64,000 bases of DNA, taken from contig OX597816.1 in assembly GCA_951406725.2 (NCBI GenBank), positions 86,366,001 through 86,430,000 on the forward strand, written 5' to 3'. Positions 18,349 to 23,031 of the stretch are shown one piece after another. The position numbers and the translations under genes were made by a program. The notes beneath the pieces were generated by a model that worked only from the letters and a program-made list of their open reading frames with translations, did not search any database and was not told the origin of the DNA. Source of the DNA: Octopus vulgaris. Taxonomy: Eukaryota. Numbering within the stretch: position 1 is the first letter of the stretch; every line of letters begins with the position of its first letter.

Positions 18349-18568
<220 letters not shown>

Positions 18569-18588
18569 AAAGCACATTGGTAAAATGG

Positions 18589-19040
18589 AATTTTTAATCT
18601 TTCCATTTTACCAATGTGCTTTCGGATCATCAACACAAATTAGACTAAACAAGGAAACATTCTTCATTGAAAAGTACAAGCCCAGACTCAACCATCCGAA
18701 CATACTGATACAGAGAAATTCACATTAAGGGAAAGGAAAAAAAATTTTTAAGCGATTATCTCCCTTACACCGGAAGAAATCACCCACTACCTTCCCTAAT
18801 TTAGAACTCTCCGGAGCTTAAACACAAGGATAACTCTATTAAACATAAACATAACGTCACAAGAAATTTGAAAAGCTAAATGCGAAACCGGTCTTTCTTT
18901 AAAAATTATGTCATTATAAAGGAAAAAAAATTTGTTTAAAAAATTTTCTAATATTCTTCAGACATATTGACGCAAATATATATATTTTTTAACATTTAAG
19001 CCTTCTGTCGTTTTTTCACTCTTTACTATTTTTTATATAT
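18589..19040 (+). repeat. 5' pseudo-LTR (contains the last ~45 codons of the ORF plus the 3' UTR)
   Basis: Near-identical to 22577-23031; differs mainly in homopolymer lengths. Confidence 0.95.
18861..18899 (+). ncRNA. Minimal type I hammerhead ribozyme, U3-A8 core variant (5' pLTR copy)
   Basis: aagaaa t TTGAAAA gc taaat gc GAAA ccgg TC tttctt. Helix I is aagaaa/tttctt, helix III is palindromic ACCGGT, and the predicted cut is after GUC at 18893. Confidence 0.75.
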
Positions 19041-19101
19041 TCATCCACGTGCTTTCACAAACCAACTTTCTTATCTATATATTAAACACGTGATACCGAA
19101 A

Positions 19102-20393
19102 ATGCCACAGAAGACCAACACCTCGGATAAAACCTTAAATGAGGACATACTCAAAGAACTGAAAAATATTAATACACAGCTTCTAAACCTGAACAACAAA
19201 ATCGAGGAATCAAACTTACTCGCCCGGGAAAATAAAAGCAATGAAGATACAATTCGCTACACTGACCAGGTTAGTAAGGATTTGCAACTGTTATACACAA
19301 CACTAAATTCAATGTTCATCAACAAATCCGAAAATAATACACACGCACCAAATGAAACACAGCAGGACATCATACGCACCCAAATAACCCAGCAAAAAGA
19401 AAAATAGGAAACATTTGGAATACTAACCTGCACAACAGAAAACTCGCCTTCTGGAACATGATAAAAAATTCCAACAAAGCAGATATTTACGAGGGATGGA
19501 TAAACTCAACCCCAATTATCCTCCCACGCAAATTCCAGATAAAATTAATTCCTAACGAGCCTGACGGACAGAGATCTATTAGGGAAAAGTCAGCTCTGTT
19601 CAATTTTAGATCAGAAATAGAGCTTCTAAGACTCAGGGCCTCCACAAATGAGGAAAAATTTAAAAGCATAGACGAGGAGATGCACAATATAATACTGAAA
19701 CATACCGAGGGACAACCCCTCGAAAATACATTAGATCACCGGAAGGATACCTGTGAAAAAGAAGAGAGAAATTCTCTCCTACGCTGGGAGAAAAACATGG
19801 ACTTCTTCCAAAAATATAGTGAAACTTTCAAAAATGAATTGGGTACAAATAATCCCTTCCTTAAGAAAATTACAATAAATAAAAAAGAAAAACCAAACAA
19901 CCCACGAACAACCCCCAACTATCCTCCATACACTAAAAACAGAAATCACCCACAACCAACCTTTGCAAACCACGCAAGACCTAACAGGGAACTAGCTGAC
20001 AGAGGACGCGTCTATGAAATAAATTACACCAAAAACAGAACACACCAACAACATCCTAATACCAGACCCAACCACCATACAGCACAAAACGACACTAGAA
20101 TAAGAAATACACCACACACAAATCGCTACTACCCCATGAACCAAAATTACTGGTCCCCACTAAACACAAGACAAACGCAAAAAAACACTATGTCAAGCAA
20201 CATCCCACATACAAGCAGTTCGAAACAAAAATATTTCCCATACAGAAATTTTACACACACCACAAACAATAACAACCATAGATTCCCACACACACACAAC
20301 GATCGGGGGCAACAATACCACCACTCCCCCGACCAAATACCACACAACCTCACAGACACTCATACAAACAAAATTACACCCAACATTTTTTAG
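19102..20393 (+). CDS. PLE upstream ORF1, broken by a frameshift at ~19395; coiled-coil-like N-terminus and N/H/T/P-rich C-terminus
   Basis: ATG at 19102 (..LNEDILKELKNINTQLLNLNNKIEE..). It continues across an A-run into RKIGNIWNTNLHNRKLAFWNM, which is in frame with the 311-aa ORF at 19458-20393. Lies between the pLTR and the RT frame. Confidence 0.7.
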
Positions 20394-22716
20394 CCAGGGA
20401 CCAGGGACACCAGGACACAGGCTGGAACCTAGTAATAAGGAAAAACCGAAGATAATCAATCTTTCAACCAAACCTCTTTCTAACATAAAAATTGACATCC
20501 TCTCAAAAGGGCTCAAGTTTACACCAACTCCACGCAGAGCCAACCTAAATGAAATCAAGGATAATATAACAGAATTTTGCAGAAAATTAAGACTAGCAGA
20601 AGCATCAACCAGTTTCAATACTGAAGATGAATCACTAGTCAAGAACAAAAGTGAACACATCCCACACAGAGGAAGAAATAAAGATCTTGACGAATTCTGT
20701 AACCACATTGAGAACTTCCCCTACCATACTATACATAAACAGAAAGCTAACTCAAATTTTAACACTACACAATGGAAAGAACTGATAGAACTTCAAAATG
20801 ATGAGGATATAACCATTAAGGAAGCAGACAAGGGAAATGCAGTTGTAATAATGGATACATCATACTACAGAAATCTTGTAATTTCCTTGCTTGATGACGA
20901 CCTACATTATGAAAAAATTACCAACTACACCCCACAAAAAATAATGAAAACTCTATCTTCACTAATTAAAACCCATGAAAAGGAACTAACAACCAAAGAG
21001 ATTGACTTCCTAACAAACTTTAAATGCAAACCTAGCCTTTTCTATGGTCTGCCAAAAATTCATAAAAGTCAAATTATAAATGAAACCATTAAAAAATCAC
21101 CAAAGACATACATACACACACCTAACCCGGGGGACCTAAAACTACGACCCATTGTAGCTGGCCCAACCTGTGAAACACACAGACTAAGTCTACTTATGGA
21201 CATCCTCCTGAAACCCTTCCTTAAACATATCGATAGCCATATCAGAGATGACTTAGATATGTTAAACCACCTTCCAAAAAAAGCCAAGGAAGAAACAATC
21301 CTGGTTTCATTTGATGTAGTCAACTTGTATACCAGTATACCTCATAATTATGGACTGGAGGCAATACAGTTCTGGTTAGACCAATTTCCGGAAGAAATAC
21401 CAAAAAGGATCAGTAAAGAATTCATTACTAAATCAATTGAATTCATCCTACACAATAACCACTTCATGTTTGACAATACATTTTACCGTCAAAAATCCGG
21501 AATTGCTATGGGTACAAGGGCAGCACCAGTCATTGCGAACTTAACAATGGGATACATGGAAATAATCATTTACCAGGAATCTTTATCAATCTTTCCCCTC
21601 TCTCAATACATAAAAGAGAACTGGAAACGATTCTTAGACGATTGTTTTATTCTCTGGAATGAAAACACAGATAAACTCCTAAAATTTAAAAACCTATTGA
21701 ACAGCATAAACCCAAATATACAGTTCACAATGGAATACAACCAAAAGGAGCTCCCGTTCTTGGATATACTAATTAAAAAAATTAACCTTAAAATAGAAAC
21801 AGACATTTTCTACAAAGCCACAGACGCCAAACAATACCTTCTCTTTAATTCATGCCACCCAAGACACACTAAAACAAACATCCCCTTCAACCTTGCAAGA
21901 AGGATATGCACAATAGTGTCAGAACAAAATACCAGGAACTTTAGACTGCAAGAACTCAAAAACACCCTAATTGACAGACATTACCCAGCTCAACTCATAG
22001 AGGATGGGATCAGACGTGCAACAGAAATCAACATAGAAACTTTAAGAAAAGTTCAACACAACAACACACCTTCCCCGAAAATACTACCTTACATATCTAC
22101 ATACAACCCCAGAAACAAAGAAGCCTTCACCATCATCACCCAGAATTTACCAATACTTCATAAAAACCCCAAATTAAAGGAAATTCTAAACATACACCAA
22201 ATCATTAAAAGCTACAAACAGCCTAAATCACTTAAAAAGATTCTCACAAAGGCAAAATTGTCTTCTGAAATTACGGATGCAAAAGTAAAAAAATGTGGTA
22301 GATCGAACTGTGCAACATGTCCTAACCTACTAGAAGGATCAGAATTCCTCTTTAAAGAGGGACAGAAATTCAAGATCAAATCTAACTTTACTTGTGCCTC
22401 TGAAAACATAATTTATGTCATAAAATGCTCGGGCTGCCACCAAGACTACGTGGGTTCCACGGGACTATCACTCAGACGTAGATGCACACTGCATCGACAA
22501 CAGATTGCATTCCCAGAATATAGAATGATACCTTTTAGTGAGCACATTGAGAAATGTGCAAAGCAACTACTACCACAATTTTTAATCTTTCCATTTTACC
22601 AATGTGCTTTCGGATCATCAACACAAATTAGACTAAACAAGGAAACATTCTTCATTGAAAAGTACAAGCCCAGACTCAACCATCCGAACATACTGATACA
22701 GAGAAATTCACATTAA
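20392..22716 (+). CDS. PLE reverse transcriptase + GIY-YIG endonuclease (frame open from 20164; first ATG only at 20851)
   Basis: IINLS..LSKGLKFTPTP, FCRKLRL and ITIKEADKGNAVVIMD lie upstream of the ATG. Then FYGLPKIHK, RPIV, SFDVVNLYTSIP, GIAMGT, RFLDD, LPFLDI, SCHP; linker CGRSNCATC; NIIYVIKCSGCHQDYVGST..R...H (GIY-YIG with CCHH). No internal stops. Confidence 0.95.
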   Translation, partial: SQGPGTPGHRLEPSNKEKPKIINLSTKPLSNIKIDILSKGLKFTPTPRRANLNEIKDNITEFCRKLRLAEASTSFNTEDESLVKNKSEHIPHRGRNKDLDEFCNHIENFPYHTIHKQKANSNFNTTQWKELIELQNDEDITIKEADKGNAVVIMDTSYYRNLVISLLDDDLHYEKITNYTPQKIMKTLSSLIKTHEKELTTKEIDFLTNFKCKPSLFYGLPKIHKSQIINETIKKSPKTYIHTPNPGDLKLRPIVAGPTCETHRLSLLMDILLKPFLKHIDSHIRDDLDMLNHLPKKAKEETILVSFDVVNLYTSIPHNYGLEAIQFWLDQFPEEIPKRISKEFITKSIEFILHNNHFMFDNTFYRQKSGIAMGTRAAPVIANLTMGYMEIIIYQESLSIFPLSQYIKENWKRFLDDCFILWNENTDKLLKFKNLLNSINPNIQFTMEYNQKELPFLDILIKKINLKIETDIFYKATDAKQYLLFNSCHPRHTKTNIPFNLARRICTIVSEQNTRNFRLQELKNTLIDRHYPAQLIEDGIRRATEINIETLRKVQHNNTPSPKILPYISTYNPRNKEAFTIITQNLPILHKNPKLKEILNIHQIIKSYKQPKSLKKILTKAKLSSEITDAKVKKCGRSNCATCPNLLEGSEFLFKEGQKFKIKSNFTCASENIIYVIKCSGCHQDYVGSTGLSLRRRCTLHRQQIAFPEYRMIPFSEHIEKCAKQLLPQFLIFPFYQCAFGSSTQIRLNKETFFIEKYKPRLNHPNILIQRNSH

Positions 22717-23024
22717 GGGAAAGGAAAAAAATTTTAAGCGATTATCTCCCTTACACCGGAAGAAATCACCCACTACCTTCCCTTATTTAGAACTCTCCGG
22801 AGCTTAAACACAAGGATAACTCTATTAAACATAAACATAACGTCACAAGAAATTTGAAAAGCTAAATGCGAAACCGGTCTTTCTTTAAAAATTATGTCAT
22901 TATAAAGGGAAAAAAAAAAAAAAATTTTTTTTAATTTTCTAATATTCTTCAGACATATTGACGCAAATATATATATTTTTTAACATTTAAGCCTTCTGTC
23001 GTTTTTTCACTCTTTACTATTTTT

Positions 23025-23031
<7 letters not shown>
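22577..23031 (+). repeat. 3' pseudo-LTR running into (TA)n
   Basis: Direct repeat of 18589-19040; ends at tttttatata and merges with the microsatellite. Confidence 0.95.
22847..22885 (+). ncRNA. Minimal type I hammerhead ribozyme, U3-A8 core variant (3' pLTR copy)
   Basis: Identical to 18861-18899; predicted cut after 22879. Confidence 0.75.

What the first reader, a model, noticed from the sequence alone, without database searches (positions are those of the whole stretch)
18861..22885. Variant minimal hammerhead (UUGAAAA core, compensatory U3-A8) in both pseudo-LTRs
Seen: identical 39-nt motifs at 18861-18899 and 22847-22885, aagaaa-t-TTGAAAA-gc-taaat-gc-GAAA-ccgg-TC-tttctt. Known: PLE pLTRs carry minimal hammerheads with a palindromic helix III that cleave as dimers, and C3-G8 of the CUGANGA core is a Watson-Crick tertiary pair. 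Inference: both positions are changed here (U3, A8), which preserves the pair and suggests selection for activity. A standard CUGANGA search would miss it. Cleavage after GUC at 18893 and 22879 would release a 3986-nt unit-length RNA containing ORF1 and RT.
Basis: partly seen in the sequence, partly recalled or inferred. Interest (0 to 1): 0.75.

Follow-up and report, generated by a model that had tools for sequence, protein, structure and literature searches.

The report
Penelope hammerhead with slipped cut site
Both ends of this jumping gene carry a tiny hammerhead-shaped (self-cutting RNA) motif of an already published U-A variant type, but this copy's lineage lacks one base at the predicted cut point and so likely cuts poorly; it still spread to hundreds of copies before a younger branch regained the base.

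Summary
The U3-A8 core is real but published: Cervera and de la Peña 2014 list it, including the heptamer UUGAAAA, in Schistosoma elements. This scan has 30 earlier notes on it in at least 13 genomes. It is this genome's commonest core (17,346 pattern hits, control 1,442; C3-G8 2,770, control 409).

The 'extra t' is U2.1, and its partner A1.1 is deleted. Sister copies have a full 7-bp helix I (1,015 copies); the window's short form has 872. Trees built without the junction place full forms at the base, short forms next, and a regained A in the youngest, abundant branch. Core and helices stay conserved (2 of 30 columns vary, against 62 of 182 in flanks). Most copies (71 of 99) read through the motif, so they came from uncut or rejoined RNA. 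An excess of copy ends at the cut site was not distinguishable from a control hot spot. Cleavage is untested. Verdict: known kind, with a useful natural allelic series.

The parts
18353..18472 (.). (TA)n microsatellite at the left insertion junction
   Evidence: sequence
18465..18569 (-). Inverted, 5'-truncated piece of the element (pLTR 3' end plus tail); reverse complement of 18979-19082
   Evidence: self-BLAST 96% over 105 nt; junction read
18589..19040 (+). Upstream pseudo-LTR (5'-truncated copy of the element's 3' end, starting inside the endonuclease coding region)
   Evidence: direct repeat of 22577-23031, 96.5%
18861..18899 (+). Hammerhead motif 1: helix I 5' strand 18861-18867 (U2.1 = 18867), core U3-A9 18868-18874, 2-bp helix II with 5-nt loop 18875-18883, GAAA 18884-18887, palindrome 18887-18892, C17 = 18893, helix I 3' strand 18894-18899 lacking A1.1
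19041..19082 (+). Optional tail of about 40 nt between the two alternative 3' ends
   Evidence: two 3' end types among copies; tail described in PMC8557442 and PMC11167929
19102..20455 (+). ORF1 region, no Pfam family; broken here by two frame changes; open (451 aa from Met) in L171
20164..22716 (+). ORF2, open from stop to stop (850 aa): RT, CX4CX2C linker, C-terminal GIY-YIG with C/H motif
   Evidence: Pfam RVT_1 32.4 bits against cut-off 29.6; GIY-YIG E=0.06, below cut-off; motifs read in the translation
22577..23031 (+). Downstream pseudo-LTR, ending without tail in (TA)n
22847..22885 (+). Hammerhead motif 2, identical to motif 1; C17 = 22879

Best explanation
This is a minimal type I hammerhead motif with the published U3-A8 core, carried in both pseudo-LTRs of a young Penelope-like retrotransposon, and in this copy's lineage it lacks base 1.1 at the predicted cut site, so it likely cleaves weakly or not at all. 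Shown: the element's anatomy, the motif, its conservation among subfamilies, and the missing base relative to sister copies. Inferred from trees: the ancestral junction was GUC^A with a 7-bp helix I; the A was lost; the short form was inherited by several successive subfamilies; C17 then became A; and a second A restored the junction (GUA^A) in the youngest large subfamily. Inferred from literature: intact versions would cut slowly, as dimers paired through the ACCGGU palindrome and probably with help from the element's protein. Reverse transcription starts at the tail and mostly reads uncut (or rejoined) RNA, so cutting is useful enough to keep the motif but not required for copying.
For: Full junction 1,015 copies, short junction 872, both controls 0. 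In a sample chosen by an anchor 110 nt downstream, not by the motif, 34 were full, 32 short and 5 unparsed among 71 that span it. A coding-region tree without the motif (37 copies, two outgroup families) and a junction-masked tree (77 copies) give the same order: full at the base, a short clade (bootstrap 87 and 100), GUA-short copies sister to the GUA^A clade (88 and 100). The restored clade has the lowest internal divergence, 0.66% against 0.72-2.0% for the groups that could be measured, and makes up 63 of the first 100 full-type hits by my count. Older relatives L192 and L193 are full. Shared substitutions: 2 of 30 core and helix columns against 62 of 182 flank columns, Fisher p=0.002. Pair 2.1-1.1 is formed in most copies of 10 of 11 other groups, with covarying bases. 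PMC3088659 rejects hits with a 1.1-2.1 mispair and reports that a 2-nt insertion at this spot impairs cleavage. In PMC11167929 a Penelope-type hammerhead needs protein to cut, and its core mutants do not affect insertion in vitro.
Against: No cleavage data exist here, and the published insertion that impaired activity was 2 nt, not 1. The core stayed almost invariant through the short subfamilies: the only shared core change is A8 to G in one clade, which argues that the short form still does something. The family is young (window 4.2% from the basal copy), so a dead motif had little time to decay. Several inner branches have weak support, recombination between subfamilies was checked only by eye, and the coding tree has a single basal full copy. 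The tree samples were picked by motif patterns.
Confidence: 0.62

Rival explanations
1. The window's form is an active ribozyme. The missing base is absorbed either by bulging U2.1 or by a U-U pair at 1.1/2.1 with a bulged A in helix I, perhaps helped by the element's protein.
For: 872 copies over several subfamilies; core conserved in them; the alternative register keeps the core spacing; one other group (F8, 3 copies) also has an unpaired base at this spot.
Against: The core-preserving register is about 4.8 kcal/mol less stable than the bulged one (+2.3 against -2.5). The junction was restored in the youngest large clade and in one further copy. A8 to G arose only inside the short lineage.
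Confidence: 0.25
2. The motif is kept for a non-catalytic job (RNA fold for protein binding or dimerisation, a promoter or splicing element), and none of the forms needs to cut.
For: 71 of 99 copies read through the motif; hammerhead mutants do not affect insertion in vitro in PMC11167929; no clear excess of copy ends at the cut site.
Against: Conservation follows the catalytic consensus: loop II and position 17 vary, core positions do not. Positions 3 and 8 covary genome-wide, and the 1.1-2.1 pair was regained.
Confidence: 0.1
3. The 39-mer is a chance hammerhead look-alike in AT-rich DNA.
For: No Rfam hammerhead match; monomer fold only -3.4 kcal/mol and helix II only 2 bp; U3-A8 patterns are AT-rich.
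Against: 17,346 hits against 1,442 for the reversed control; different families share the core with different helices and palindromes; it lies where Penelope hammerheads lie.
Confidence: 0.02

Closest known systems
U3-A8 minimal hammerheads of Schistosoma mansoni Cercyon Penelope-like elements (Cervera and de la Peña 2014, PMC4209133; main text parts 1-2 of 4 and supplement parts 1-2 of 3 read)
   Same: Type I, in both pseudo-LTRs, U3-A8 core (row S. mansoni(4) has the same UUGAAAA), G10.1-C11.1 pair, palindromic helix III that implies dimer cleavage.
   Different: Helix II is 2 bp here (7-8 bp typical there); no extra base between A9 and 10.1; 4-nt palindrome CCGG; helix I 6-7 bp; the window's lineage lacks N1.1. 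There U3-A8 is the smaller set (about 1,300 against 2,000); here it is about 79% of control-subtracted hits.
Natural core variants of Perreault et al. 2011 (PMC3088659; passages and section 3 parts 2-3 of 7 read)
   Same: U3-A8 covariation in nature; 2-bp stem II; extra bases between 2.1 and 3 (saltern 2a/2b variants).
   Different: Those insertions come from saltern metagenomes and phage and the tested one is 2 nt; here the unpaired base arises from loss of its partner, in an animal retrotransposon.
PAc, Poseidon element of Anolis (PMC11167929; passages and section 3 part 2 read)
   Same: Pseudo-LTR hammerhead, tail between two reverse-transcription start sites, AT-rich targets.
   Different: PAc has a C3-G8 core overlapping its start codon; it was tested in vitro (protein-assisted, dispensable for insertion), this one was not.
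Neptune/Nematis-type EN+ Penelope-like elements (features as given in PMC8557442; passages read)
   Same: C-terminal GIY-YIG, CX2-5CXXC linker, partial tandem with inverted 5' piece, 30-40 nt tail, microsatellite target.
   Different: An upstream ORF1 of about 450 aa in a different frame from the RT ORF; clade not placed against named references.

Membership tests
Penelope minimal hammerhead motif (PMC4209133) | Lies in the pseudo-LTRs of an RT + GIY-YIG element | tested here: met
Penelope minimal hammerhead motif (PMC4209133) | Core boxes CUGANGA or the U3-A8 variant, GAAA, NUH | tested here: met
   UUGAAAA, GAAA, GUC; invariant or nearly so in 71 copies apart from A8 to G in 7
Penelope minimal hammerhead motif (PMC4209133) | G10.1-C11.1 pair and palindromic 15.2-16.2 region | tested here: met
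   G at 10.1 in 71 of 71, C at 11.1 in 67 of 71; palindrome duplex -9.7 kcal/mol
Penelope minimal hammerhead motif (PMC4209133) | Extra base between positions 9 and 10.1 (common there, not part of the search descriptor, absent from some Fig. S3 rows) | tested here: not met
   A9 is followed directly by G10.1; Fig. S3 row M. japonicus also lacks it, so I treat it as typical, not defining
Consensus (cleavage-competent) hammerhead ribozyme (criteria of PMC3088659) | N1.1-N2.1 pair next to the core | tested here: not met
   Window copies and 63 of 64 short-type copies show U/U; all 45 full-type sister copies show U-A, a group defined by that base. The window copy is therefore filed as a derived form, not as a consensus ribozyme.
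Consensus (cleavage-competent) hammerhead ribozyme (criteria of PMC3088659) | 3-8 Watson-Crick pair | tested here: met
   U3-A8; genome counts U-A 17,346, C-G 2,770, U-G 2,303, C-A 1,382 by subtraction
Consensus (cleavage-competent) hammerhead ribozyme (criteria of PMC3088659) | Site-specific self-cleavage after H17 | not testable with these tools
   Only assembled contigs were available
Consensus (cleavage-competent) hammerhead ribozyme (criteria of PMC3088659) | Indirect trace of cleavage: genomic copies beginning at the cut site | tested here: inconclusive
   11 of 20 TA-joined starts near the site fall on it, but a control position upstream collects more
EN+ Penelope-like element | RT followed by C-terminal GIY-YIG endonuclease | tested here: met
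   RVT_1 above cut-off; GIY-YIG only E=0.06 but IIY..YVG motif and C/H residues visible
EN+ Penelope-like element | Pseudo-LTRs, inverted 5'-truncated piece, optional tail | tested here: met
Neptune/Nematis clade | CX2-5CXXC linker between RT and EN | tested here: met
   CGRSNCATC in the translation
Neptune/Nematis clade | Placement in an RT tree with named references | not tested
   No named reference sequences were at hand

The most novel reading that the evidence does not exclude
The repeated loss and regain of exactly one base at the scissile bond is a scar of cutting and rejoining in vivo: the RNA is cut, religated or circularised, and reverse transcription across the join sometimes drops or adds a base. 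Selection then restored a cleavable junction. The same A appears lost twice (main clade; L150-L152, whose flanks are of the old type) and gained twice (youngest clade; one arm of the inverted pair L156). This would be genomic evidence for the proposed circular intermediate of Penelope elements, with a ready-made allelic series to test it.
Probability: 0.12. Interest if true: 0.7.

Novelty: new member of a known kind. Interest (0 to 1): 0.3.

Why it matters
What Penelope hammerheads do in vivo is still open: they are nearly universal, cut slowly, and were dispensable for insertion in the one in vitro system I read. The U3-A8 core itself adds nothing new. The family is useful because, within about 4% sequence divergence, it offers natural alleles at the cut junction (GUC^A, GUC short, GUA short, GUA^A) and at the 3-8 pair (U-A, U-G), each with a copy number and a place on a tree. 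Measuring their cleavage rates would show directly whether cutting tracks with transposition success.

Tried and rejected
Rfam scan: no hammerhead family matched at E<=10.

Cut-site footprint in genomic copies: 3 of 99 aligned anchor-selected copies begin at 0/+1 (1 of 100 did not align). Among TA-joined 5' ends, one search gave 89 lines = 24 places; I dropped 4 that I could not assign to the family, and 11 of 20 begin at the cut site within microhomology, judged by eye. The downstream control had about 35 places with at most 5 on one spot. The upstream control had 10 of 39 places on one spot, 42-43 nt before the cut, in the first 100 of 261 lines, against 5 at the cut site on the same contigs. 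The excess is not separable from TA microhomology hot spots, so I do not count it as evidence.

Expression: no RNA holder listed; four runs laid were contigs only and show no molecule ends.

Conservation counted on motif-selected copies would be circular, so I resampled by a downstream anchor. The first version of the count included gap columns (116 of 230); the substitution-only count is the one reported. Neither count includes the A1.1 column.

ORF1: no Pfam family.

Lünse et al. 2017 on Penelope hammerhead dimers is not held; I saw only its citation, and it may already contain such junction variants. The gel for the control in Fig. S6 of PMC4209133 that disrupts the 1.1-2.1 pair is an image I could not read.
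Full report
Observation. The two 39-nt motifs are identical and lie at 18861-18899 and 22847-22885, with C17 at 18893 and 22879, 3,986 nt apart. They sit in a direct repeat (18589-19040 / 22577-23031) flanking a broken ORF1 and an open 850-codon frame with a Pfam RT match above cut-off and a weak GIY-YIG match. An inverted 105-nt piece precedes the upstream repeat, and both ends run into (TA)n. Copies end at one of two TA-like sites about 40 nt apart. This is the layout described for endonuclease-bearing Penelope-like elements (PMC8557442, passages). The CX4CX2C linker points to the Neptune/Nematis type; I did not test the clade by a tree. The genome is 2.8 Gb in 227 contigs; an earlier scan note calls it likely octopus, which I did not test.

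Is the motif more than chance? The exact 26-nt core occurs 140 times, control 0. A loose minimal-hammerhead pattern gives 23,801 hits against 3,628 for the reversed control. Split by positions 3 and 8: U-A 17,346 (control 1,442), C-G 2,770 (409), U-G 2,303 (1,138), C-A 1,382 (639; by subtraction). These are copies, not independent events, but paired states dominate and U3-A8 is about 79% of the control-subtracted total. I clustered 199 fetched hits by their flanks and split the groups partly by hand. In 7 of 11 groups other than the window's short form, the first three helix I pairs form in register; shuffling flanks between groups gave a mean of 1.5 and never reached 7 in 10,000 trials. One of the 7 is defined by having the A, so it is not independent. 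Helix II and the palindrome differ between groups (CCGG, GCGC, CTAG, GTAC). My patterns did not cover G3-C8.

Is it new? No. PMC4209133 reports U3-A8 in Cercyon elements of Schistosoma mansoni, about 1,300 hits, and its Fig. S3 shows the same UUGAAAA heptamer. PMC3088659 reports natural U3-A8 covariation. A full-text search for 'hammerhead' with 'U3-A8' returned only the first paper. The scan's own index holds 30 notes with these words in at least 13 genomes.

The lone U between helix I and the core is position 2.1. Sister copies have an A right after H17 that pairs with it and gives a 7-bp helix; the window's copies lack that A. Family-specific patterns count 1,015 full and 872 short copies, controls 0. 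In 100 copies chosen by an anchor 110 nt downstream (first 100 of 2,436), 99 aligned, 71 span the motif, and of these 34 are full, 32 short and 5 unparsed. The short form must either bulge U2.1 next to the core (-2.5 kcal/mol) or use a U-U pair with a bulged A (+2.3). PMC3088659 treats a 1.1-2.1 mispair as grounds for rejection and found that a 2-nt insertion at this place impairs cleavage. That a single base does the same is my inference.

History of the junction. A tree of about 835 coding bases from 37 of 107 copies (those long enough), rooted on two other families about 55% identical in protein, has a full GUC^A copy at the base, then a ladder of short subfamilies including the window (bootstrap 87), then a GUA-short copy sister to the full GUA^A clade (88). 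A junction-masked tree of 77 of 107 copies rooted on the older relative L192 agrees: basal full copies, a short clade (100), GUA-short copies leading to the 25-copy GUA^A clade (100, 97), and a U3-G8 clade (100) inside the short lineage. The GUA^A clade has the lowest internal divergence (0.66%; others 0.72-2.0%). Three short copies with old-type flanks suggest a second loss (support only 72-76), and one arm of L156 a second gain. These samples were picked by motif pattern, and recombination was checked only by eye.

Conservation. In 53 anchor-selected copies, shared substitutions (3 or more loci) occur in 2 of 30 core and helix columns against 62 of 182 flank columns (p=0.002). The two are A8 to G and the outermost helix I base. 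Loop II and position 17 vary freely. An older subfamily shows a compensatory C-G to U-A change in the second pair of helix II in about 4 copies. So the motif is under constraint as a hammerhead, and it stayed so in the short subfamilies, which counts against calling them simply dead.

Template. Copies end about 150 or 190 nt downstream of the cut site, which matches reverse transcription starting at the tail (PMC11167929). A linear RNA cut at both sites could template only such short pieces; the 71 of 99 copies that span the motif came from uncut or rejoined RNA. I looked for copy starts at the cut site: 11 of 20 TA-joined starts nearby fall on it, but an upstream control position collects twice as many on the same contigs, so the test is inconclusive.

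Mechanism. Shown: anatomy, counts, conservation, missing base. Inferred: order of loss and regain; weak cleavage by the short form. From the literature: slow, dimer-dependent cleavage (PMC4209133; PMC6765202 passages), protein assistance and dispensability for insertion in vitro. I put 0.62 on a weak or inactive short form of a useful but non-essential ribozyme, 0.25 on an active short form, 0.10 on a non-catalytic role.

Novelty of the junction history. I saw no paper on loss and regain of N1.1 in Penelope subfamilies in the listings. Lünse et al. 2017 was not available and could cover it. An earlier scan note describes a similar loss and restoration for the 3-8 pair in another genome. I also read part 1 of 5 of bioRxiv 2026.07.22.740005 for background only.

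Verdict. Observation confirmed; interpretation partly supported; new member of a known kind; interest 0.3, carried by the natural allelic series rather than by U3-A8.

Noticed in passing
G000 genome-wide: U3-A8 is the majority core among these minimal hammerhead patterns (about 79% after control subtraction), spread over at least five flank-defined groups; at least three of them (L184, L185, L017) lie behind Penelope coding sequence.
   Followed up: partly
L076, L077, L083 (U3-G8) and L203 (U3-A8); compare L054-L060 (C3-G8): One small repeat group with shared flanks shows both U3-G8 and U3-A8, and resembles a canonical tandem repeat: a possible second origin of U3-A8 through a U-G step.
   Followed up: no
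L054-L060, G000:C1:20002278-20004542: Tandem units of about 359 nt, each with a canonical C3-G8 hammerhead: retrozyme-like.
   Followed up: no
copies of this family, 33-60 nt upstream of the cut site: TA-joined 5' ends are about three to four times more frequent just upstream of the hammerhead than at or below it (minus strand: 51 lines against 13 and 16); could reflect a transcript start, an RT stop or anchor sensitivity.
   Followed up: partly
window 19102-20455; L171:1935-3389: An ORF1 of about 450 aa with no Pfam match overlaps the RT frame, which has no Met near its start: frameshifting or splicing may join them.
   Followed up: partly
window 18850-18855 and 18905-18910: A predicted outer helix extends helix I beyond an internal loop; these columns are mostly conserved among subfamilies.
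   Followed up: partly
L009, L011, L015, L016, L185: In the most abundant U3-A8 group the 5' strand of helix I ends in a pyrimidine-rich stretch plus CAG, like a 3' splice site; in Drosophila virilis Penelope the intron ends at helix I (PMC4209133).
   Followed up: no
L069, L080, L195: Another group (U3-G8) also has an unpaired base between helix I and the core.
   Followed up: no
G000:C8:8826122-8826178: A copy folds back on itself exactly at the predicted cut site.
   Followed up: no
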